64,000 nt of DNA from a virus. Below, piece by piece: positions 8,914 through 42,556 of this stretch. The position numbers and the translations under genes were made by a program. The stretch lies in the IMG/VR virus record IMGVR_UViG_3300037427_004270; one strand, written 5' to 3'. The notes under the pieces are model-generated. The model made no database searches and was not told where the DNA came from. It saw only the letters and a program-made list of their open reading frames with translations. Positions within the stretch are counted from its first letter, which is position 1. Every line of letters begins with the position of its first letter.

Positions 8914-10080
8914 CTAAATACCCAGAACCTTCTCATTCCCGCATTTAAAATTTGTATAAGACATAACTCTTTTCGGAGCGATCCAAAGACGCTTGCACAT
9001 ACTTCGGCCTGGAGTCGGGGCTCCAAGGTCTGTAACGACGATATGAGCATCATAATTGTGCTCATTCACATACTTTGTCGGTGCATCAAAACATGTACCT
9101 CCAGTCAATACTCTCTCTCGTTTTACGCTATGTCCCTTCTTTACTCTGACAATCTTATCCTCGTGGACCCTTGTATCGAAAGGTATAAGATCAAAGTCAA
9201 CAATGCTGCTCAGTACACTAATCTCAGAAAAGAATTCGGCCAACATCTTATCGTCAACCGAGCCGGACTGATCTAGGCTCAGGGCTATCTTTGCAACTCT
9301 TCTAACTTTCTTGGCTGGAAAGACGTATGGAAACCTCTTGTTTATTTTTCTAACTGTGCTGTTCTTTTCCATTCTTTGGGAAGTCTTACAGAAATACCTG
9401 AGTACTTTTTGCCAACTAACTCTTGCTCCAACATATTTGTCGATAAGTTTGTTTTTCATCTCCGCTGTAACGGTTCCCCACCTGTTTGTCTTTGAACAGT
9501 CGCTAACTGCTTTCGAGATAGCATCCTCTAGCTTGCTGTTTGCTATCTCAGAGCCTACAGAGGCTTTTGCATCGCCCGGTGTATCACCAGTCGCCGGTGC
9601 CCACTCCTCGTGGCTGTCGAGCTCTGAGACACCATCAACATCCTCGTCGGACATCTGGGAAAGTATGGCCTGATAATACCACTCTGAGGTTTTTCCAGCA
9701 GGCATGTTCTCAAAAGGACCTTTTCCTGGGAAGCATGCAATATCTGGTAGCTCGCCCTCCAGGTGACTGTTGATGGCAAGATCTGCAGCGATGTTCCAAA
9801 CCTTATGGTTTGTTCTCTTTTCTGCAGTGACGTGGTTAAAGATAAGATGATAGAACTCGTGCTTTAGAACGCCCAAGATCTCTCTAGCTGGTAATGAATT
9901 TATAAACTCTTCATTGTAGAGAAGTTGAAAGCGGCTCGTCGATTCGTTGAAGCGAACTCCGCAAGTGGGCACACTGCTGTCACTTATCTTATCTATCTGT
10001 AGAGAAATGTATGAGAAAAACGGCTCGTCCCTCAATAGGGCAGACAAGTGCTTTCTCATATCAAACTTTCTTTTACTCAT
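8914..10080 (-). CDS. Putative metallopeptidase + VWA-like domain protein (DUF2201-type)
   Basis: GVLKHEFYHL (HExxH), WNIAADLAIN, acidic linker, C-terminal LSLDQSGSV (MIDAS-like) and GGTCF; coupled to the AAA gene. Confidence 0.85.
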   Translation of the reverse strand: MSKRKFDMRKHLSALLRDEPFFSYISLQIDKISDSSVPTCGVRFNESTSRFQLLYNEEFINSLPAREILGVLKHEFYHLIFNHVTAEKRTNHKVWNIAADLAINSHLEGELPDIACFPGKGPFENMPAGKTSEWYYQAILSQMSDEDVDGVSELDSHEEWAPATGDTPGDAKASVGSEIANSKLEDAISKAVSDCSKTNRWGTVTAEMKNKLIDKYVGARVSWQKVLRYFCKTSQRMEKNSTVRKINKRFPYVFPAKKVRRVAKIALSLDQSGSVDDKMLAEFFSEISVLSSIVDFDLIPFDTRVHEDKIVRVKKGHSVKRERVLTGGTCFDAPTKYVNEHNYDAHIVVTDLGAPTPGRSMCKRLWIAPKRVMSYTNFKCGNEKVLGI

Positions 10081-11194
10081 CTTTCTGGTCCTCGACAAAG
10101 CTCAAAATGTCAACGATATATTCACGAATAACAGTACCATCCGCTGTTTTAGATTTGTGAAATGCCACAATGTTTTTAAGTTCCCCCGAACCGATGATCG
10201 ACCAAAGCTTGGCAGCGGCCTCGGAAGGAACCTTGACAAAGTATTCACACACGTTTGCAAGCACCTCTTCTTCGATCTCTTCAGGGCCGATGAAAAGAGC
10301 TGAATTCTCCTCATCTAATTTCTCGATAAGATCGCAATGCTCTGATAGGGTGAAGTCCTCCACCAAGTCCAGCTTACCATCATAAAACACATCCTCGATA
10401 GAGACTTTTCTTTCGCAGTTTTTCAGATAGTCAGCAAAGGACACAGATGCCTGCATGCCAACAAAAGAGCATGAGATGTTGTAAATGGACTCTAGAACGA
10501 ATTCATCCTTATTGTGCATGTATTGTTGAATGAGCTCACCTACCGTGGTGCTTAGTCGATCCCAAGATCTTCGACTAGGATATACGGTGCCGGGAGAGTG
10601 CTCCTCTGCAAACTCTAAGAACTTTGGCTCTCTGTCCAGGAAGTCAATAATTTCCGAGACAACTTTTCCTTTGGCCCAAGCCTTCCAATCTTCATGCGAA
10701 GGGTCAACATCAAAGACCGACCACCTGTCTAACTCTGCAGGGTCCATCTCTCCCACTTGGTATGAAGAGCTTTCCTGAGCTCCTCCGTTAATGGCTGCGA
10801 AGATGATGGTGTCCGGGTGTAGCGTCCAGCCTGCCAGCTTTCTGCTGTCCGTTAACTCAAAAATACCCTGTCGGACTTCGAGGACCGCACGATCAATTTC
10901 GTCGAAGAAAAGCACAACAGGCTCAGTGCATGCTTGCACTAGCCATGAAAACGGTCTAAACCTTGATGCCTTCTGGCCATTGACATCGTAAGACTCCTGG
11001 CTCGGGATACCAAGTAAGTCACCCTCTGTCATCTGAGAAGCTCGGCGCTCTACAACTGGAAGCTCGACGGTATTCGCGAACTGGTATATAACCTGGCTTT
11101 TTCCAATCCCATGCTTCCCTCTAAGAAGCACAGGCAACCTAGCACTGGTTACTAACGGAAGGCATCTATTCAACGAAGAAAAAGAAATGCTCAT
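10073..11194 (-). CDS. MoxR-like AAA+ ATPase
   Basis: Walker A LLRGKHGIGKS, Walker B VLFFDEIDRA, sensor-1 IFAAIN, DPAELDRW, PSRRSW. Confidence 0.88.
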   Translation of the reverse strand: MSISFSSLNRCLPLVTSARLPVLLRGKHGIGKSQVIYQFANTVELPVVERRASQMTEGDLLGIPSQESYDVNGQKASRFRPFSWLVQACTEPVVLFFDEIDRAVLEVRQGIFELTDSRKLAGWTLHPDTIIFAAINGGAQESSSYQVGEMDPAELDRWSVFDVDPSHEDWKAWAKGKVVSEIIDFLDREPKFLEFAEEHSPGTVYPSRRSWDRLSTTVGELIQQYMHNKDEFVLESIYNISCSFVGMQASVSFADYLKNCERKVSIEDVFYDGKLDLVEDFTLSEHCDLIEKLDEENSALFIGPEEIEEEVLANVCEYFVKVPSEAAAKLWSIIGSGELKNIVAFHKSKTADGTVIREYIVDILSFVEDQKDE

Positions 11195-12646: not shown

Positions 12647-14587
12647 CTAGAAGCAGACGTCTTGGAAAATATCCTTTAAAATTTCAGTATATCGAGAGCC
12701 GCTTGGTGGGTGAATATCAATTGTTCTATCCGGATCTCCGTATGCTGCAGCCATCCAGGATGACAAATAATTGATCGCATCAATAAAAAAGATCTCTACT
12801 GCATCGCCCGGCTCGCATCCGGCTATACCACATGGGGAGGCCAGCGCAGATATATCTTGAGGCTGATTTCCCCAAGTTGTTTGTGGCCCCTCATCGCTAA
12901 TGCTGATCACATACGGAAAAGCATCACTTCTCCAAGGAATAGCCAGGGGGTTTACGGGGTCTACGGCTGCAGCAACGACATCAGATGTTCTCTCCCATCC
13001 GCCTCCATGACAACCCAAGCTTGCAATGATGCTGGTAAGTGATGCGGCATCAACCATCCCGGCCTGAGTCATTACGACTGCATTGCCATAGGAATTTGAA
13101 TGATGCTGGCTTGGGTGCATTATTAACCCGAAACGATGGTCTGTTTCTTCAAAGTCAGCAACATATGATGCAATGCCTTCTGCTAGAGCTTCGATGTAGG
13201 GACACATGGAGCCTGAAGTGTCAATGACAAATACCATGTCCACTTTGTCATGTGCATTCAAGTCTTCGTCTATCTCTCCGTCACAGTCATTGTCTATCTG
13301 ATCGCACACCTCTTCTTCTGGCAGTATCTCCCCTACGCAGTTACCCCAAGCACCTACTTCGCAGGTGGTGGTGCCCAGACGACACTGGCCAATGCCATGC
13401 AAGTTTGGATTGTTGCCGCACATGGAAACTATCCCGTCGATGTTGCCGTCACAGTCGTTATCCCAGTTGTCGCAAATCTCCGGCTCGATGCCTTGGTAAA
13501 CACATGTTCCCCAAACTCCAAACTCATCACAGACCTGCATACCAAAGCCACAGTTGAGGAGGTTGCCCTCAGTGTCGTAAATGTCTTCTCTGCACACCTG
13601 TATTTCGTCCTTTATACAAAGGCACCCCTCGTCAATTTCTCCGTCGCAGTCGTTATCAATCTCATCACAAAGCTCTGTTGTGGGTTGTGGGGCGTCACAG
13701 AAAGCCCATCGACCGAGGAGGCACTTTTCCATACCTGGGCCACAAATAGACTCGCATGGTTGAAATAAGTTCTCGTCCGTCGCTCCGTCACAGTCATCGT
13801 CGAGGTTGTTGCACGTTTCATTCATTGGCATGACAGCATCAAAACATTTAAGATCTCCTTCAACACAATATTCCAAGCCATAGGCGCAAATACCGACATC
13901 GCTGAAACCGCATACCCTCTGGTTCAGTGAACTAAGTTCAACAGGGTCGTCGTCAACAATACCGTTACAGTCATTATCAACTCCGTCGCACCTTTCCTGC
14001 TCATCTAACACTTGCCCCTCACAGTTCGTCATTTGCCCGTCAGTGCATCTCATGATGCCAGTGGCACACGGAGTGGTATCGGAGAAGATAACGTCTTCAG
14101 AGCCCGTCCAGCACTCCACAGGGGGTATCTCATCTATCTCACCGTTGCAGTTATCATCATAACCATTGCAAACCTCAGTTCTCATTGGTCTAATGTCTGG
14201 ATTTGTGTCATCGCAGTCTTGTGCATTCAAGCACGACTCTAATGAGTTGAAGCCATCGCCGTCCTTGTCTTCTGACAGGCCATCGTCGATAAGGCCATTG
14301 CAGTCATCGTCCTTTTCGTTACACTCTTCGTCTTGTGGTCCGAGGTATTCTTCGCAAGTAACTGAGTAGTCTCTATTATCGCACACCGTTGTGCCAAAAG
14401 AACACTCGCCCAACTCAGTCAGGCCTTGAAGGTCAATGCCTATCAAGACTTCTCCGTCTGTGCCGGTGGCACAAGGTTCTGGTGGTGGGCAAAAGCGTGT
14501 CAGTTGTTCATCGCACTGTGGGCATGCAGCTAACACCAAAAGCATTATGGCGCTAACCGAAAAAAACCTAGACATTTTTTTTCTCAT
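12647..14587 (-). CDS. Lipoprotein with Cys-rich metal-binding (MopE-like) repeats and C-terminal VWA domain
   Basis: Signal peptide ending LAAC (lipobox); seven ExCxxxDxDCxGxxDE/D repeats; DMVFVIDTSGSM MIDAS and ISDE motifs. Confidence 0.85.
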   Translation of the reverse strand: MRKKMSRFFSVSAIMLLVLAACPQCDEQLTRFCPPPEPCATGTDGEVLIGIDLQGLTELGECSFGTTVCDNRDYSVTCEEYLGPQDEECNEKDDDCNGLIDDGLSEDKDGDGFNSLESCLNAQDCDDTNPDIRPMRTEVCNGYDDNCNGEIDEIPPVECWTGSEDVIFSDTTPCATGIMRCTDGQMTNCEGQVLDEQERCDGVDNDCNGIVDDDPVELSSLNQRVCGFSDVGICAYGLEYCVEGDLKCFDAVMPMNETCNNLDDDCDGATDENLFQPCESICGPGMEKCLLGRWAFCDAPQPTTELCDEIDNDCDGEIDEGCLCIKDEIQVCREDIYDTEGNLLNCGFGMQVCDEFGVWGTCVYQGIEPEICDNWDNDCDGNIDGIVSMCGNNPNLHGIGQCRLGTTTCEVGAWGNCVGEILPEEEVCDQIDNDCDGEIDEDLNAHDKVDMVFVIDTSGSMCPYIEALAEGIASYVADFEETDHRFGLIMHPSQHHSNSYGNAVVMTQAGMVDAASLTSIIASLGCHGGGWERTSDVVAAAVDPVNPLAIPWRSDAFPYVISISDEGPQTTWGNQPQDISALASPCGIAGCEPGDAVEIFFIDAINYLSSWMAAAYGDPDRTIDIHPPSGSRYTEILKDIFQDVCF

Positions 14588-14609: not shown

Positions 14610-14638
14610 ATTATAAATCACTTTTCCAAGGCTTACAA
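14610..14638 (-). promoter_or_regulatory. Sigma70-like promoter
   Basis: TTGTAA-17-TATAAT upstream of the VWA lipoprotein. Confidence 0.55.
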
Positions 14639-14651
14639 GCGGTTTTTTTTG

Positions 14652-14846
14652 CTATTCCTGGCCTAGTTTGTCCAAGATCTCCACTTTAAGTGTGCATTCA
14701 TCCATATCATTTAAGTACCTTACCACAGTTTTGAAAGAAGCTTCAACAAAAATATTACCATCAATATCACAATAGTGACAGCTCAGGCCTCGCTTCCCTC
14801 GACAAGTCATACAGGCACACTTCACATAAAGCTTTTTATCTGCCAA
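14652..14846 (-). CDS. Small zinc-finger protein
   Basis: CMTCRG...CHYCDIDG (DnaJ-like CxxCxG pairs); TTG start with GAGG RBS. Confidence 0.6.
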   Translation of the reverse strand: MADKKLYVKCACMTCRGKRGLSCHYCDIDGNIFVEASFKTVVRYLNDMDECTLKVEILDKLGQE

Positions 14847-15777: not shown

Positions 15778-15807
15778 ATTATAACACGAAGTTGAACGGA
15801 ATGTCAA
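15778..15807 (-). promoter_or_regulatory. Sigma70-like promoter
   Basis: TTGACA-18-TATAAT with TGn extension. Confidence 0.75.
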
Positions 15808-16271
15808 GCACTCTTGGTGAAAGCATACTTATACAAGCGAGTAAGAAAAACTTCTCGCCCTCCCTCGTTCTTTAGCTGATTTACTTCACACGATGGAACT
15901 GGGGACCGTAGATGCATGGTCCCCTTCATCACTGAGCCTCGACTCTTAACACCAACAGACATGCCGCACGAGGGCGAGTTTGCAATACCAATGAAACCAA
16001 CTGCATCCGGATGCCTGGAGAATATCTCTTCCGACTTTGACATCATAGATGGATAGACATTCTCTCCTCCCATCTTTCCGTGAACCTCGTCGCCAATTTG
16101 CATCAGTCTTATATTCTGGCGAGGGGTACCAAAAAGTTCGTGTTCTGGGCAAACAGGTACAAGTGTTATACCATTCTCTTTCGCCCACTCTTGAACGTCT
16201 GGTCTGTGTTTGTCGGCACCATTCCACCTGACCTTGTTGCCCAGAACACATGAACTTATTAGTACTTTCAT
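15804..16271 (-). CDS. DUF523 family protein (TudS/thiouracil desulfidase-like, Fe-S)
   Basis: LISSCVLGNKVRWNG, VCPEHEL.FGTPR and SPSCG motifs. Confidence 0.85.
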   Translation of the reverse strand: MKVLISSCVLGNKVRWNGADKHRPDVQEWAKENGITLVPVCPEHELFGTPRQNIRLMQIGDEVHGKMGGENVYPSMMSKSEEIFSRHPDAVGFIGIANSPSCGMSVGVKSRGSVMKGTMHLRSPVPSCEVNQLKNEGGREVFLTRLYKYAFTKSA

Positions 16272-16287
16272 CGGCTATCCGTTATGC

Positions 16288-16364
16288 TGGCACACTCGGC
16301 AGGACTCGAACCTGCAACCCTCGGCTTAGAAGGCCGATGCTCTATCCAGTTGAGCTACGAGTGC
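16288..16364 (-). tRNA. tRNA-Arg (UCU)
   Basis: Full cloverleaf, anticodon loop CTTCTAA, TTCGAGT T-loop, encoded CCA. Confidence 0.95.
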
Positions 16365-16550: not shown

Positions 16551-16820
16551 TCACGAGTTGCAGTCCTTATACTGAAGCTCCCACTCACAATCCTGTGAAC
16601 CATAAGCACAGTAGTCGTATCTGCAGGTACCTCCGTCAGACTCGTCAAATGTCCAAGAACAACAAACGCCATAAGAATTGGACGTGCACTCGTCGGGAGC
16701 TTCCTCAAAGGGATACTCGTGAGAACACTGAGGTGGTTCTGGGTCTGGTGCTGCGACCCATTCTGGCATTGGCTCCACGCAAGCGATTGCGCCAAATGCT
16801 ATAAGTAAAATACTTTTCAT
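16551..16820 (-). CDS. Small Cys/Pro-rich lipoprotein
   Basis: Lipobox AIAC after a short signal peptide, Pro-rich linker, 8 further Cys; GGAGG RBS. Confidence 0.7.
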   Translation of the reverse strand: MKSILLIAFGAIACVEPMPEWVAAPDPEPPQCSHEYPFEEAPDECTSNSYGVCCSWTFDESDGGTCRYDYCAYGSQDCEWELQYKDCNS

Positions 16821-16880: not shown

Positions 16881-17339
16881 TTATTTGCTTTTTATTGTGT
16901 AGTATACGTTCATCACTCTCTTGACGTAGGAATATCTCATCTTTTTAAAGCAGATATATCCTGCATTATATGCACATAGGGCTAGTTCTCGATCTCCCTT
17001 TGCGCGATCCAGCCACCAGCGGAGGGCCTTTGTGCCGACCTTGATGTTCGTCTTAGGATCTTTTAACTCTTCACAAGTATAAAGAGAGCCATCCTTCTTT
17101 GGATTCCACTTTGGTATCACCTGCATCAAGCCACAAGCGCCTGCTTCTGACACTGCTTTCGGATACCAACTGCTCTCAACCTGGATGATTGCAGCAACGA
17201 GCTCTGGCTCCAGGTTGCTCTGCTTTGCATGTTCGATAATTGTTGGGGTATATTCTTGTATTTTCTTTTCTGATATTGTAGTGTGCGACACAAGAAACGC
17301 TATAATAGCCGCACTAGACAAATTTGATACTAAACTCAC
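16881..17339 (-). CDS. Lytic transglycosylase (SLT domain)
   Basis: AAIIQVESS, AGACGLMQV, NIKVG, ALCAYNAG motifs; N-terminal hydrophobic segment. Confidence 0.92.
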   Translation of the reverse strand: MSLVSNLSSAAIIAFLVSHTTISEKKIQEYTPTIIEHAKQSNLEPELVAAIIQVESSWYPKAVSEAGACGLMQVIPKWNPKKDGSLYTCEELKDPKTNIKVGTKALRWWLDRAKGDRELALCAYNAGYICFKKMRYSYVKRVMNVYYTIKSK

Positions 17340-20046: not shown

Positions 20047-20122
<76 letters not shown>

Positions 20123-22065: not shown

Positions 22066-22815
22066 TTACTTCTTGAATAGTTTTGAAAAGTCGAACCCCA
22101 AAGGGTCTGTTTTGTTTGATGAAATATGATAATGCCCAAGCACTCCCTTAAACTTCTGAGGGTCTTTGATTGTGCCCTTCCATGACGGAGTGATGATGGG
22201 AAGGCTGTAGTATCCACACAATGTCTGGACCAACGCCCTCAATGCCTCTTCTTGAATCGGATAAAAACCTAGACGGTCTGGGGCTTGTCTGCGATGTACT
22301 TTGTCTGCTTTCCATATTGGTCTTGGGTTTTCTTTGTTTTGGTATTTTAGGAATACAGGGTTTGCGACTTCAACACCGACACTCTGGGTGTTTACGCCAC
22401 GGGCATGCCAAGCAATATCATTGGCATCCATTAGCTGTATTATTGTGCCGTCCGTATCAATGCAAAAATGCACTGAAAGGCCACGGTTTGTAATTACTCG
22501 GTGGCACATCTCTGAATCTAGGCAGCCATCCCAATGTACAACAACACTTCTAACTCCTCTGTGGGAGTTTCTTTTTTTCATGTTGTCTTCTGGTAGTCCC
22601 CACTCTGGGTTTGTCTTGTAAGTTACGACCTTATCCCACTCTATGGATATTTCTTTGTCGTCAATGATAATAGAAGATTTCATTTCTTGTTCTCCGAGCA
22701 CTTCACTTGGTGTAGTATATAGTGCTTCAGAGCTTCTAATCGTTATTTTTGGTCTTTTTCTTGCGGGACTTATAATGCTTAGGAGGGTCCGTAGGAATGT
22801 AAACAATGTTTCCAT
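22066..22815 (-). CDS. N-acetylmuramoyl-L-alanine amidase (Amidase_2)
   Basis: VVVHWD, SVHFCIDTDGTI, AWHA, SVGVE, GHYHI...KTDP; N-terminal hydrophobic segment. Confidence 0.9.
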   Translation of the reverse strand: METLFTFLRTLLSIISPARKRPKITIRSSEALYTTPSEVLGEQEMKSSIIIDDKEISIEWDKVVTYKTNPEWGLPEDNMKKRNSHRGVRSVVVHWDGCLDSEMCHRVITNRGLSVHFCIDTDGTIIQLMDANDIAWHARGVNTQSVGVEVANPVFLKYQNKENPRPIWKADKVHRRQAPDRLGFYPIQEEALRALVQTLCGYYSLPIITPSWKGTIKDPQKFKGVLGHYHISSNKTDPLGFDFSKLFKK

Positions 22816-39723: not shown

Positions 39724-39799
39724 TGGTAGGCAAGGCAGGAGTTGAACCTGCGACTTCCCGCTTATAAGACGGACGTTCTCACCACTGAACTACTTGCCC
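39724..39799 (-). tRNA. tRNA-Ile (UAU anticodon)
   Basis: Full cloverleaf, anticodon loop CTTATAA, discriminator A, encoded CCA. Confidence 0.92.
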
Positions 39800-40219: not shown

Positions 40220-42556
40220 TCAAGACACAAAAGCATGTTCCAAAACTTCGCCAATCTCTTTGACAAAGACGAATTCTACCTCTTCTTTAACAATGTCCGG
40301 GACATCAATTAAATCCTTCTCGTTCTTCGCTGGCATGAGGATCTTTTTAATACCTCCGCGATGTGCAGCCAGAACCTTCTCTTTGATACCCCCCACAGGC
40401 AGCACAAGCCCCCGTAAGGTTATTTCTCCAGTCATTGCGACCTCGTGGTTAACTTTCTTGCCAGTAAGCAGAGAAACGAGCGCAGTGGTTATCGTGATGC
40501 CTGCAGATGGGCCGTCTTTTGGGGTTGCACCTGCTGGGAAGTGGACATGAAAATCTTCCTCTTCCATGAACCTGCCCTCGTCGTCTCCAAGGCCCCACTC
40601 TTTAGCGCGTGAACGAACAAGACTTAGTGCTGTGTTGGCAGACTCTGACATCACTTCTCCGAGCTTACCAGTTAAGGATAATTTTCCTTTCCCTGGCATT
40701 TTTGTAGTTTCGATAAAAAGCAGGTCGCCTCCGACTGCAGTCCATGCAAGTCCGGTTGCAACGCCAGTCTTAGAAGTTCTTTCTGCCACTTCGTTCTCAA
40801 ACTTCTGAGGACCAAGGACTTCTTCAAGCTTATCAGAGGTGATAGCCACCTTCTCTTCTAATTCTTTTGCAATTTGAACTGCTATATAACGAGAGACTGC
40901 TGCCATTTGTCTTTTTAGGCCTCGGACTCCTGCCTCTCTGGTGTGTTTTTCAATAATCTCTTGAATAACCTCATCGGACATTTCAACCGAGTCTTCCTCG
41001 ACGCCATGCTTCTCTACTTCCTGCTTGATCAGGTGCCTCTTTGCAATCTGCAACTTCTCTTCGTGGGTATATCCACTTAGCTCGATAATTTCCATCCTAT
41101 CGCGCAAAGGCAGAGGGACGCCGGAAATACTATTTGCAGTTGCAATGAACAAAACAGAAGATAGATCAAAGTCCATCTCCAGATAGTGATCACTAAAGGT
41201 ATCATTTTGCTCTGGGTCTAAAACCTCCAACATAGCAGATGATGGATCTCCCCTGTAGTCTGAGGACATTTTGTCAATCTCATCTAAGAGGAATACTGGG
41301 TTATTTACCCCCACCTTCTTTAGGCCTTGTAAAATTCTACCTGGTAATGCGCCAACGTAGGTTCTTCTATGTCCCCTAATCTCCGACTCATCTTTGACAC
41401 CACCGAGAGAGATTCTATGGAACTTTCTCCCCAAGGCTGTCGCGATAGACTTGCCTAGAGATGTTTTACCAACTCCCGGAGGCCCTAACAAGCAAAGGAT
41501 TGGACCCTTCATATCATCTTTGAGCTTTCTCACTGCGAGATATTCAATGATGCGCTTCTTGACTTTATCTAGCCCGTAATGATCATCATCCAAAATGTCT
41601 TGGGCTTCTTCCAGATCATTTGAGTCAATGGTGCTAGCTGACCATGGCATATCTAAAATAGTTTCCACATAAGTTCTGGCTACATTATATTCAGCCTGGC
41701 TCGGCTGAATGTTCTTTAGTTTTTCAATCTCTTTATCAAAAGTCTTTTGAGCTTCGTCTGGTAGGTTTGCCTTTCTTGCTCTTTCTATAAAACCTGAAAC
41801 AAGATCGTCACCTTCTTCGTACTCGTTAAGTTCTTCTTTGATGACTTTCATTTGTTGACGCAAGTAGTACTCTCTCTGGGTCTTACTCATCTCTCCTCTT
41901 ACTTGGGAGTTTATCTTTTCCGAGATCTTTAACACTTCTGCTTGTTTTTCGAGCAGCGAAATGACCAAAGAGAGTCTCGCAGTTAGATTGACGGCCTCAA
42001 GAACTTCCTGCTTTTCGTCAATAGTAGCCTCTATATTGGCAGTAATTAAGTCGGCTAAATGGCCAGGGGTATCTATGGATTCCAACAACTGCTTGGCCAT
42101 CATCGGGATGTCAGGCAATAGGTCCATGACCTCAGAGGCCAAGCTTTGTAGGTGATCCATGAGGTCCATGACAACCTCGTCAACCTCTTGGTCTTCCACC
42201 ATCTCCACTTTTGCAACAAAGTATGGCTCTGTTTCTTCAAACTTCTTTACGGAAAAACGAGACACACCCTCAACAACAATGTTGTACCCAAAAGTGTCTG
42301 TTTTTGCAACTTTTATAATCTTCGCAAGAGTTCCAACACGATAAACGTCTTTTGCAGTGGGATCACTTACCTCTGGCTTGTGTTGGCTTACGATACCGAT
42401 ATACTTGTTCTCTCGTACTGCGTCCTCGATGAGCTTGACTGTCTTCTCTCTTCCAACAGTCAGTGGCATAATAGCACCGGGGAAGAAAACACTGTTCCTC
42501 AAAGGAACAATGGGCAGTGAAATTGTATTCTCGTTTTCTTTTGTTGTCATTTTCAT
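40220..42556 (-). CDS. lon: ATP-dependent Lon protease
   Basis: N-domain LPIVPLRNSVFFPG, GPPGVGKTS, LLDEIDK, PKDGPSAG catalytic Ser, GGIKEK. Confidence 0.97.
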   Translation of the reverse strand: MKMTTKENENTISLPIVPLRNSVFFPGAIMPLTVGREKTVKLIEDAVRENKYIGIVSQHKPEVSDPTAKDVYRVGTLAKIIKVAKTDTFGYNIVVEGVSRFSVKKFEETEPYFVAKVEMVEDQEVDEVVMDLMDHLQSLASEVMDLLPDIPMMAKQLLESIDTPGHLADLITANIEATIDEKQEVLEAVNLTARLSLVISLLEKQAEVLKISEKINSQVRGEMSKTQREYYLRQQMKVIKEELNEYEEGDDLVSGFIERARKANLPDEAQKTFDKEIEKLKNIQPSQAEYNVARTYVETILDMPWSASTIDSNDLEEAQDILDDDHYGLDKVKKRIIEYLAVRKLKDDMKGPILCLLGPPGVGKTSLGKSIATALGRKFHRISLGGVKDESEIRGHRRTYVGALPGRILQGLKKVGVNNPVFLLDEIDKMSSDYRGDPSSAMLEVLDPEQNDTFSDHYLEMDFDLSSVLFIATANSISGVPLPLRDRMEIIELSGYTHEEKLQIAKRHLIKQEVEKHGVEEDSVEMSDEVIQEIIEKHTREAGVRGLKRQMAAVSRYIAVQIAKELEEKVAITSDKLEEVLGPQKFENEVAERTSKTGVATGLAWTAVGGDLLFIETTKMPGKGKLSLTGKLGEVMSESANTALSLVRSRAKEWGLGDDEGRFMEEEDFHVHFPAGATPKDGPSAGITITTALVSLLTGKKVNHEVAMTGEITLRGLVLPVGGIKEKVLAAHRGGIKKILMPAKNEKDLIDVPDIVKEEVEFVFVKEIGEVLEHAFVS

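What the first reader, a model, noticed from the sequence alone, without database searches (positions are those of the whole stretch)
12647..14587. Phage-encoded surface lipoprotein with myxobacterial-style Cys-rich repeats and a VWA domain
A lipobox (LAAC), seven ExCxxxDxDCxGxxDE-type repeats and a C-terminal MIDAS VWA domain are seen in the sequence. Such repeats are typical of Myxococcota/deltaproteobacterial exported proteins. In Myxococcus, the VWA lipoprotein CglB is a gliding adhesin and the Cys-rich TraA mediates kin recognition (established). The phage may display a host-mimicking adhesin to alter contact, motility or kin recognition, or to exclude superinfection; it also hints at a Myxococcota-like host (inference).
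Basis: partly seen in the sequence, partly recalled or inferred. Interest (0 to 1): 0.75.

Follow-up and report, generated by a model that had tools for sequence, protein, structure and literature searches.

The report
Phage integrin-like surface lipoprotein family
An uncultured marine phage encodes a secreted, lipid-anchored protein: a cysteine-rich stalk carrying an integrin-type, metal-dependent binding head. The protein is a conserved core gene of a large phage group, and its target on the infected cell is still unknown.

Summary
ORF 12647-14587 (minus strand, 646 aa) has:
- a lipoprotein signal (L-A-A-C, Cys22);
- seven ExC(D/N)xxD(D/N)(D/N)C(D/N)GxxD repeats (Pfam PF11617, E 3.8e-26);
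- a C-terminal VWA domain (model pLDDT 90.7; Z 16.4 to integrin I-domains) with a complete, invariant MIDAS: D456, S458, S460, E532, D565.

This is not a recent host-derived add-on. More than 3,700 metagenomic homologues were found. The 120 best are 36-93% identical and mostly full length (about 580-660 aa). Relatives lie on at least 393 viral contigs and keep the lipobox, the repeats and the MIDAS. No cultured phage has it, and no full-length copy was found in the cellular genomes scanned.

The gene evolves under strong purifying selection (dN/dS about 0.06). It has its own conserved sigma70-type promoter and lies among replication and metabolism genes, not virion genes.

Most likely it is made early and placed on the envelope of the infected cell as an integrin-like binder. 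Its role may be receptor masking or adhesion; this step is inferred.

The Myxococcota link is partly supported. The nearest cellular look-alikes and the phage's Lon protease point to that phylum. There is no specific homology to CglB, CglD or TraA, and the host is unproven.

First readers of this scan noted the same protein in other phage genomes; those notes are unchecked.

The parts
12647..14587 (-). Whole gene: 646-aa lipoprotein precursor (stop codon at 12647-12649)
   Evidence: ORF list and translation. The 120 best of more than 3,700 homologues are mostly full length.
14522..14587 (-). Signal peptide with lipobox L19-A20-A21-C22; Cys22 is the predicted lipidated first residue of the mature protein
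   Evidence: Read directly from the sequence. The Cys column is present in 109 of 110 homologues, with G/A/S at -1 and acidic residues at +3 to +6. Lipidation itself was not tested.
14330..14521 (-). N-terminal Cys module (residues 23-86), the most variable part of the mature protein
   Evidence: Mean identity to the window protein is 33%, against 53% for the repeats. Conserved Cys at 33, 39, 62, 69 and 78.
13253..14329 (-). Stalk: seven MopE-type Asp/Cys repeats (starting at residues 87, 138, 198, 257, 305, 370, 426), most followed by a Cys-rich beta-hairpin spacer
   Evidence: Regular expression and unit alignment. PF11617 E 3.8e-26. 45 of the 50 Cys lie in residues 22-445. Short beta-hairpins in the full-length model, pLDDT 87.7.
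12650..13252 (-). C-terminal VWA (integrin I-like) domain, residues 446-646
   Evidence: Model pLDDT 90.7. Foldseek and VIA match only VWA domains. Profile hit to integrin I-domains at E 7.6e-6.
13208..13222 (-). MIDAS DxSxS motif (D456-T-S458-G-S460). The other MIDAS residues are E532 and D565.
   Evidence: Invariant in 110 sequences. E532 aligns with the MIDAS Thr and D565 with the MIDAS Asp of integrin alphaX. The motif is kept in 31 of 31 distant viral relatives.
14610..14638 (-). Promoter-like site of the sigma70 type (TTGTAA-17-TATAAT), ending 22 nt before the ATG
   Evidence: Consensus scan, 10 of 12 matches. A site of 9-12 of 12 matches lies shortly before the gene start in 9 of the 16 loci scanned: L001-L005, L007-L009 and L018. 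This is a consensus match only.
14652..14846 (-). Conserved upstream neighbour: a 64-aa four-Cys (CxxC...CxYC) zinc-ribbon-like protein with no signal peptide
   Evidence: tblastn finds it just upstream (within about 600 nt) in L001-L005, L007-L009, L011, L012 and L023, and elsewhere in L014 and L046. No Pfam match. A functional link to the lipoprotein is not shown.

Best explanation
The gene encodes an integrin-like lipoprotein that the phage puts on the envelope of the cell it infects.

Shown or directly read from the sequence:
- a Sec-type signal with a lipobox;
- an acidic mature protein (pI about 4) with 50 Cys;
- seven Asp/Cys repeats that form a modular stalk;
- a C-terminal VWA head with a complete MIDAS that has Glu where alpha-I domains have Thr, as in integrin beta-I domains;
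- strong purifying selection;
- its own sigma70-type promoter.

Inferred:
- The host RNA polymerase transcribes the gene early.
- The precursor is exported, lipidated at Cys22 and oxidatively folded in the periplasm. The repeats probably bind Ca2+.
- The protein is sorted to the outer membrane and may be surface-exposed.
- The MIDAS head then binds an acidic side chain of a conserved host envelope or surface component.

The most likely purpose is to mask or immobilise the phage's own receptor. That would exclude superinfection and protect progeny from sticking to infected cells and debris, as the small lipoproteins Llp (T5) and Cor do. Adhesion of the infected cell is a close second.
For: Anatomy.

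Conservation of every element across the family and the wider viral superfamily.

Constraint:
- dN/dS is about 0.06 against L001.
- In L002-L005 the protein is 65-71% identical. In the same loci GroEL is 57-58%, the AAA ATPase 49-52% and the amidase 43-49%.

Early or host-type expression:
- The gene has its own promoter-like site, conserved in relatives.
- Nine near-consensus sigma70 promoters lie on the coding strand, against 0.68 in shuffles.
- There are no TATAAATA late-type motifs on the coding strand.

Position and matches:
- The gene lies among GroEL, SLT, amidase, MoxR, RNR, ThyX and DnaE genes, not in the tail block.
- It matches no PHROG virion family.

Known precedents:
- Phage lipoproteins that block receptors: Llp (bioRxiv 10.1101/2022.06.28.497910) and Cor (PMC13673623).
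- Surface VWA lipoprotein adhesins CglB and CglD (PMC9946355; bioRxiv 10.1101/2023.10.19.562135).
Against: - No experiment supports any step. Lipidation, location, metal binding and the ligand are all inferred.
- Known exclusion lipoproteins are small (well under 100 aa) and vary quickly. This protein is 646 aa and among the most conserved in its region.
- The number of stalk repeats varies from 1 to 8 across the superfamily, so no fixed geometry is implied.
- The gene lacks a clear Shine-Dalgarno site although many neighbouring genes have one.
- Promoter calls are consensus matches only.
- The host and the phage receptor are unknown.
Confidence: 0.4

Rival explanations
1. Adhesin of the infected cell. 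The surface-exposed VWA head sticks the infected cell to particles, polysaccharide or neighbouring cells, which raises the chance that progeny meet new hosts.
For: - VWA/MIDAS heads on Cys-rich, Ca2+-binding stalks act as adhesins in CglB and CglD (PMC9946355; bioRxiv 10.1101/2023.10.19.562135).
- The fold matches adhesins such as LapA, Mfa5, SpaC and TRAP.
- High conservation fits a generic ligand better than an arms-race target.
- The acidic residues that follow the lipidated Cys in nearly all members resemble surface-export signals of some phyla (the comparison rests on my own knowledge).
Against: Surface exposure is not shown. No precedent is known to me of a lytic phage gaining from host-cell adhesion. 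The ligand is unknown.
Confidence: 0.2
2. One reading: a mimic of host social or motility proteins (CglB, CglD, TraA) that interferes with gliding, outer-membrane exchange or kin recognition in a Myxococcota host.
For: - The overall design is the same as CglD: lipoprotein, Ca2+-type repeats, a Cys-rich stalk and a beta-integrin-like VWA (bioRxiv 10.1101/2023.10.19.562135).
- The nearest bacterial look-alike clusters are from Myxococcota.
- A short homologue exists in a Myxococcota MAG.
- Lon is closest to Myxococcota Lon among the phyla sampled.
Against: - No specific homology was found. The best hit in Corallococcus is 29.8 bits, and the best of 401 Myxococcota genomes is 61.7 bits, covering only the generic half of the domain.
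- TSP3 and PA14 domains are absent.
- The family is old and viral, not recently captured.
- The low-GC, small-genome members of the phylum, which match the phage's 44% GC, have no MopE or VWA relatives at all.
Confidence: 0.1
3. A periplasmic envelope-remodelling or lysis accessory. The protein would be anchored in one membrane, with its stalk reaching across the periplasm to hold a partner, and would work with the nearby SLT transglycosylase, amidase and small lipoprotein.
For: An SLT gene with a hydrophobic N-terminus (16881-17339), a second Cys- and Pro-rich lipoprotein (16551-16820) and an amidase (22066-22815) lie within 8 kb. Spanins are the known lipoprotein tethers of phage lysis (my own knowledge).
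Against: - There is no C-terminal membrane segment and no match to a spanin PHROG.
- The protein is about ten times the size of an o-spanin.
- The repeat number varies from 1 to 8, so the length is not fixed.
- Linkage to the SLT gene is not conserved in most relatives.
Confidence: 0.1
4. A virion component (fibre or decoration).
For: Some phage VWA proteins are annotated as virion proteins, for example in Pseudomonas phage PaMx28. The phage has many fibre genes (earlier notes of this scan).
Against: A lipoprotein export signal kept in 109 of 110 members is incompatible with assembly in the cytoplasm. About 24 disulfides need the periplasm (inference). The promoter is of the host type, the gene lies outside the tail block, and there is no structural PHROG match.
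Confidence: 0.05
5. A store or scavenger of metal (Ca2+ or Cu) in the periplasm, as the Pfam name 'Cu-binding_MopE' suggests.
For: The protein has 78 Asp and 53 Glu, a pI of about 4, and repeats named a putative metal-binding motif.
Against: The invariant MIDAS head argues for protein or ligand binding. According to the paper's abstract, the copper site of MopE is made of two His and a kynurenine in another part of that protein (PMC3423442). The repeat has no solved relative by sequence.
Confidence: 0.05

Closest known systems
Myxococcus xanthus CglD (beta-integrin-like surface lipoprotein of the gliding machinery)
   Same: Both are lipoproteins with N-terminal Asp-rich, Ca2+-type repeats, a Cys-rich and disulfide-bonded stalk, and a VWA domain with a MIDAS (bioRxiv 10.1101/2023.10.19.562135). 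The best hit of the phage VWA profile in a Corallococcus genome is a 1142-aa TSP3+VWA ORF of this kind.
   Different: - The repeats are MopE-type (PF11617), not thrombospondin type 3.
- The protein is 646 aa, against 1130 aa.
- VWA similarity is only generic (29.8 bits; hhalign probability 87.6%).
- The gene is encoded by a phage, not by a gliding bacterium.
Myxococcus xanthus CglB (VWA outer-membrane lipoprotein adhesin)
   Same: [quoted passage not shown]
   Different: No specific sequence relation was found. ORFs of CglB-like size in Corallococcus score only E about 0.003. CglB has no MopE repeat stalk. I held no verified CglB sequence, so the comparison is indirect.
Integrin beta-I and alpha-I domains
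   Same: The same fold (Z 15-16.4). The MIDAS is DxSxS + Glu + Asp, as in beta-I domains (for the alignment; the identity of the beta-I residues is my own knowledge).
   Different: Sequence identity is 10-15%. There are no hybrid or PSI domains and no heterodimer partner. The stalk is built of different modules.
Phage superinfection-exclusion lipoproteins Llp (T5) and Cor (T1, phi80, N15 group)
   Same: These are phage-encoded lipoproteins, made in the infected or lysogenic cell, that act on an outer-membrane receptor (bioRxiv 10.1101/2022.06.28.497910; PMC13673623).
   Different: There is no homology (no PHROG match). They are small single-domain proteins without a VWA domain or repeats.
Pfam PF11617 'Cu-binding_MopE' repeat proteins of Myxococcota and relatives
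   Same: The same Asp/Cys motif, at a score well above the cut-off. The 80 best cellular hits are mostly from Myxococcota.
   Different: The cellular hits match only the repeat region (residues about 55-445) and lack this VWA domain. The one exception is a rare short form (L168).

Membership tests
PF11617 Cu-binding_MopE repeat proteins | Score above Pfam's gathering cut-off (27 bits) | tested here: met
   91.4 bits, E 3.8e-26, in 6 stretches. Seven motif copies by regular expression.
VWA / integrin I-like domain | Rossmann-like VWA fold | tested here: met
   Model pLDDT 90.7. 424 Foldseek hits at E<=1e-3, all VWA. VIA Z 16.4, rmsd 2.7, 169 residues aligned.
VWA / integrin I-like domain | Score above the Pfam cut-off with the single sequence | tested here: not met
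   13-15 bits against cut-offs of 23.8-27. The family is divergent. A profile of relatives reaches integrin I-domains at E 7.6e-6, and 21 of 28 members hit VWA_2 at E<=0.1.
VWA / integrin I-like domain | Complete MIDAS (DxSxS, Thr or Glu, Asp) | tested here: met
   D456, S458, S460, E532 and D565 are invariant in 110 sequences. They were placed by alignment to integrin alphaX. Metal binding was not tested.
Bacterial lipoproteins | Signal peptide ending in a lipobox [LVI][ASTVI][GAS]C | tested here: met
   L19-A20-A21-C22. The Cys is kept in 109 of 110 homologues and visible in nearly all 82 viral loci.
Bacterial lipoproteins | Acylation by Lgt, Lsp and Lnt, and sorting to a membrane | not testable with these tools
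   Needs labelling or globomycin experiments in a host.
CglD-like beta-integrin lipoproteins | Thrombospondin type 3 (TSP3) Ca2+-binding repeats | tested here: not met
   No TSP3 family appears among the Pfam hits at E<=1. The Corallococcus ORF has TSP3_bac at E 3.3e-12.
CglD-like beta-integrin lipoproteins | Specific sequence relation of the VWA domain | tested here: inconclusive
   29.8 bits. hhalign probability 87.6%, E 3.5e-6 over 121 columns. This is no better than the match to human integrins.
CglB adhesin | Sequence homology to CglB | tested here: inconclusive
   No verified CglB sequence was at hand. In a Corallococcus genome, ORFs of similar size (439-462 aa) score only E about 0.003.
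TraA kin-recognition receptor | PA14-like variable domain and MYXO-CTERM sorting tag | tested here: not met
   Pfam finds only PF11617 and weak VWA, and NCBIfam finds nothing. The protein ends ...FQDVCF with no C-terminal hydrophobic tag.
Phage exclusion lipoproteins (Llp, Cor) | Homology to known families | tested here: not met
   No PHROG family at E<=1e-3. No tblastn match in 50,697 phage records.
Spanins | Small outer-membrane lipoprotein paired with an inner-membrane partner, or a unimolecular form with a C-terminal membrane segment | tested here: not met
   646 aa, no C-terminal hydrophobic segment, and no lysis PHROG match.

The most novel reading that the evidence does not exclude
These phages carry their own integrin: a viral family of lipid-anchored, Ca2+-stabilised, MIDAS-dependent adhesion receptors. 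Expressed early on the infected cell, it would reprogramme what the cell sticks to or which phages can land on it. It is a core function of a whole, ocean-wide lineage of DnaE-type myoviruses, possibly infecting planktonic Myxococcota. It would be the first integrin-like surface receptor known to be encoded by a bacterial virus.
Probability: 0.3. Interest if true: 0.8.

Novelty: new variant of a known kind. Interest (0 to 1): 0.6.

Why it matters
Phage-encoded lipoproteins known so far are small, fast-evolving blockers or lysis parts. Here a large, strongly conserved, integrin-like lipoprotein is a core gene of a widespread group of uncultured marine phages: more than 3,700 metagenomic homologues, at least 393 viral contigs, and none in culture. 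If it remodels the surface of infected cells, it would be a new way for phages to control adsorption or cell adhesion in the ocean. It would also give a simple marker for this phage lineage. The repeat module has no solved structure by sequence search, so the family is also a good target for structural work. The Lon and repeat evidence offers a testable lead towards a host group (Myxococcota) for which marine phages are almost unknown.

Tried and rejected
The genomic context of metagenomic homologues came only from IMG/VR loci and genome scans.
- No whole genome is held for the window.
- tblastn of the protein against 50,697 cultured or GenBank phage records found no match.
- NCBIfam found nothing. 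PHROGs found nothing for this protein.
- The repeat region (phmmer) and the repeat-unit profile were searched against all PDB sequences. No hit came up at E<=1 and E<=10 respectively.
The fold searches of the full model were dominated by the VWA head, so the fold class of the stalk modules is untested.
- Partnership with the MoxR AAA+ / DUF2201 pair was considered and dropped. The pair is cytoplasmic, lies 1.5-11 kb away, and is missing near most distant relatives.
- Neighbourhood clustering over 82 viral loci showed only backbone genes (DnaE, ThyX, RNR, unknowns) and no recurrent functional partner.
- A Bacteroidota host was considered because many distant relatives have 'SC' lipoboxes followed by acidic residues. 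It is disfavoured for this phage by near-consensus TTGACA/TATAAT promoters and common Shine-Dalgarno sites and by Lon.
- GroEL gave no host signal: 0 of 101 Myxococcota genomes at E<=1e-165.
- The Lon tree left the phage on a long unplaced branch.
- The low-GC, small-genome members of the Myxococcota sample have no MopE/VWA relative.
- The T4 late-promoter motif is absent from the coding strand.
- Literature searches found no paper on a phage VWA lipoprotein.
Full report
**1. What is there**

The minus-strand ORF 12647-14587 is open for 646 aa. It begins MRKKMSRFFSVSAIMLLVLAAC: a basic n-region, a hydrophobic h-region and the lipobox L-A-A-C, with Cys22 as the predicted lipidated residue. The mature protein is very acidic (78 Asp, 53 Glu, pI about 4.05) and has 50 Cys, 45 of them before residue 446.

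Seven copies of ExC[DN]xxD[DN][DN]C[DN]GxxD start at residues 87, 138, 198, 257, 305, 370 and 426. Most are followed by a Cys-rich spacer of the form CxxGxxxCxxGxxxxC. Pfam PF11617 (Cu-binding_MopE, 'putative metal-binding motif') scores 91.4 bits against a cut-off of 27. The motif occurs nowhere else in the window.

**2. The C-terminal domain is a VWA domain**

- With the single sequence, the C-terminal 200 residues are only a sub-threshold VWA match.
- A profile of 28 viral C-terminal domains (A2) reaches integrin alphaX/alphaL I-domains and beta8/beta6/beta3 beta-I domains at E 7.6e-6 to 1e-4. Of the 28 members, 21 hit VWA_2.
- The AlphaFold model of this domain is confident (pLDDT 90.7, pTM 0.90). 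It matches only VWA domains: 424 Foldseek hits at E<=1e-3, and in the full-length model Z 16.4, rmsd 2.7 A over 169 residues to an integrin I-domain.
- D456-x-S458-x-S460, E532 and D565 are invariant in 110 homologues. In the HMMER alignment, E532 falls on the MIDAS Thr of integrin alphaX and D565 on its MIDAS Asp.
- A Glu at that position is the beta-integrin arrangement (my own knowledge).
- The full-length model has pLDDT 87.7 but pTM 0.45. That fits a chain of small beta-hairpin modules carrying a globular head.

**3. It is a phage gene**

The window encodes a tail sheath, a tape measure, a DnaE-type polymerase, DnaB, RNR, GroEL, Lon, an SLT transglycosylase, an amidase, a MoxR-type AAA+/DUF2201 pair and three tRNAs. 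No cultured phage is close. The polymerase is about 30% identical to those of Gram-positive phages, and GroEL is about 42% identical to those of Flavobacterium and Vibrio phages. The sheath's best partial hits are to Microcystis and Flavobacterium phages.

Earlier notes of this scan call the genome 'T4-like'. I saw only distant gp18-like sheath similarity, and the polymerase is not of the T4 type.

**4. The family**

- A search of 5.8 billion proteins gave 3,722 hits. The best 120 are mostly 580-660 aa long and full length, apart from a few fragments. They are 36-93% identical, all carry PF11617, and all come from metagenomes including Tara. Several lie on contigs of 188-210 kb.
- IMG/VR holds at least 393 contigs with a relative.
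- The ORFs at 82 loci nearly all begin with a signal peptide ending in a Cys and carry 3-8 repeats.
- All 31 distant ones examined keep TDxLFxxDxSGSM and (S/T)DE.
- An exhaustive HMM search with the VWA profile found 4,627 proteins (66 at E<=1e-30). They include forms of 320-800 aa with 1-8 repeats directly before the VWA domain.
- The nearest ESM Atlas clusters, both the 640-aa and the 423-426-aa forms, are 97-100% viral.
- No match exists in 50,697 phage records.
- One 267-kb viral contig carries two copies (L054 and L064).

**5. Constraint and context**

- Against the closest locus, L001, dN is 0.14 with saturated dS, giving dN/dS of about 0.06.
- In L002-L005 the protein is 65-71% identical. 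GroEL (57-58%), the AAA ATPase (49-52%), DUF2201 (41-50%) and the amidase (43-49%) are all less conserved.
- The most variable part of the mature protein is the N-terminal module. The repeats and the MIDAS region are the most conserved parts.
- Gene order (GroEL ... small zinc-ribbon ORF, lipoprotein ... AAA+/DUF2201) is kept loosely in the closer relatives.
- In distant relatives the neighbours are DnaE, ThyX, RNR and unknowns. These are backbone genes, and no recurrent partner appears.

**6. Expression class**

- A sigma70-type site (TTGTAA-17-TATAAT) ends 22 nt before the ATG.
- A comparable or better site, up to 12 of 12 matches, lies shortly before the gene start in 9 of the 16 loci scanned: L001-L005, L007-L009 and L018.
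- The coding strand of the window has nine sites with at least 11 of 12 matches, against 0.68 in shuffles. Five of them are perfect.
- The T4 late motif is absent from the coding strand.

This is consensus evidence only. It points to transcription by the host polymerase and so to early expression. Together with the export signal, it argues against a virion protein.

**7. Relation to cellular proteins and the host question**

- A scan of one genome for each of 185,579 species found 378 relatives. All match only the repeat region (residues about 55-445). Most of the 80 best are Myxococcota or 'Deltaproteobacteria' MAGs, with some DPANN, CPR, Saprospiraceae and others. None has the C-terminal domain by tblastn.
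- In 401 Myxococcota genomes the best VWA-profile hit is 61.7 bits, against 90-260 bits inside the family. That hit (L168) is a 409-aa ORF with a lipobox, three MopE repeats and a VWA domain, lying between ordinary cellular genes. A short cellular form therefore exists but is rare.
- In a Corallococcus genome the best hit is a 1142-aa TSP3_bac+VWA ORF, CglD-like, at a generic 29.8 bits.
- The phage Lon is 57-65% identical to Lon of Myxococcota: 56 of 121 genomes reach E<=1e-290. None of 201 Pseudomonadota reaches that level, the best of 151 Bacteroidota is 54%, and a Terriglobia genome gives 51%.
- In a small tree the phage Lon sits on a long unplaced branch. GroEL gives no signal.
- The Myxococcota sample contains a clade of small, low-GC genomes (26-50% GC, one of them a single 2.5-Mb contig) whose GC would suit the 44%-GC phage. 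These genomes have no MopE/VWA relatives.
- Consensus TTGACA/TATAAT promoters and frequent Shine-Dalgarno sites speak against a Bacteroidota host for this phage.

A Myxococcota-like host is a reasonable lead but is not shown. Many phyla were not sampled.

**8. Mechanism**

Shown: the parts list, their conservation, and the fold.

Inferred:
- early transcription;
- Sec export, lipidation at Cys22, and oxidative folding with about 24 disulfides;
- Ca2+ binding by the Asp-rich repeats. They recall LDL-receptor class A and thrombospondin type 3 motifs, a resemblance from my own knowledge. A teneurin study aligned the same Pfam motif to eukaryotic Cys-rich domains (PMC3278476);
- display on the outer membrane;
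- binding of an acidic ligand side chain through the MIDAS metal.

Among known systems, this works most like CglD and CglB of Myxococcus, which are VWA lipoprotein adhesins (PMC9946355; bioRxiv 10.1101/2023.10.19.562135). Among phage proteins its role is most like the receptor-blocking lipoproteins Llp and Cor (bioRxiv 10.1101/2022.06.28.497910; PMC13673623). It is a member of neither group.

I rank the possible roles as follows:
- receptor masking or superinfection exclusion, 0.4;
- adhesion of the infected cell, 0.2;
- host social mimicry, 0.1;
- periplasmic or lysis accessory, 0.1;
- virion part, 0.05;
- metal handling, 0.05.

**9. Verdict**

The feature is real, and its anatomy was read correctly. 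The 'host-mimicking moron' reading does not fit an old, strongly constrained, lineage-wide viral core gene. This is a new, phage-borne variant of the VWA surface-lipoprotein theme, with unknown ligand and host.

First readers of this scan noted the same protein in at least four other phage genomes. Those notes are unchecked and were not used as evidence.

Noticed in passing
window 16551-16820 (-): A second predicted lipoprotein: 89 aa, signal MKSILLIAFGAIAC, then a Pro-rich stretch, 9 Cys in all. It has a perfect TTGACA-17-TATAAT promoter at 16876-16848 and is conserved in L001-L005 (44-76% identity). It lies just downstream of an SLT transglycosylase that has a hydrophobic N-terminus (16881-17339). 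The two may form a lysis or spanin-like pair.
   Followed up: partly
window 14652-14846 (-): A 64-aa four-Cys (CxxC...CxYC) zinc-ribbon-like ORF without a signal peptide. It is conserved just upstream (within about 600 nt) of the lipoprotein gene in 11 related loci (35-69% identity across all hits). It has no Pfam match.
   Followed up: partly
window, minus strand: 47252, 42640, 28021, 16876, 15807, 12636, 11314, 4285, 2356: Nine near-consensus sigma70 promoters (five of them perfect 12 of 12) lie on the coding strand, against 0.68 expected in shuffles. They look like strong host-type early promoters heading gene cassettes.
   Followed up: partly
window 40220-42556 (-): A phage-encoded Lon protease (778 aa). 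It is 57-65% identical to Lon of many Myxococcota genomes, much closer than to the sampled Pseudomonadota (0 of 201 genomes at E<=1e-290) or Bacteroidota (best 54%).
   Followed up: yes
window 8914-11194 (-): A MoxR-type AAA_5 ATPase (373 aa) overlapping a DUF2201 metallopeptidase-like plus VWA-like protein (394 aa; its PHROG is labelled 'HNH endonuclease', probably a misnomer). The pair is kept in the closer relatives, 1.5-11 kb from the lipoprotein gene.
   Followed up: partly
window 39724-39799 (-), 16288-16364 (-), 20048-20122 (-): Three tRNA genes: Ile with the unusual anticodon TAT, Arg (TCT) and Gly (GCC).
   Followed up: no
window 15804-16271 (-): A 2-thiouracil desulfurase-like protein (PF04463, E 1.5e-18), an uncommon auxiliary gene for a phage.
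   Followed up: no
L176, L180, L182, L183, L185, L186, L187 (genomes G023, G059, G047, G122, G114, G053, G099): The Myxococcota genome sample contains small genomes (0.6-2.8 Mb) with low GC (26-50%); six of the seven (all but G114) form one Lon clade. One (G047) is a single 2.5-Mb contig at about 40% GC. None of the five searched (G023, G047, G059, G122, G053) has MopE/VWA relatives.
   Followed up: partly
L054 and L064 (IMGVR_UViG_3300030329_006583, 267 kb): One large viral contig carries two diverged copies of the lipoprotein gene (713 and 814 aa), about 50 kb apart.
   Followed up: no
L168:835-2064 (+): A 409-aa ORF in a GC-rich Myxococcota MAG with a lipobox, three MopE repeats and a VWA domain, lying between ordinary cellular genes. 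It is a rare cellular short form of the viral family.
   Followed up: partly
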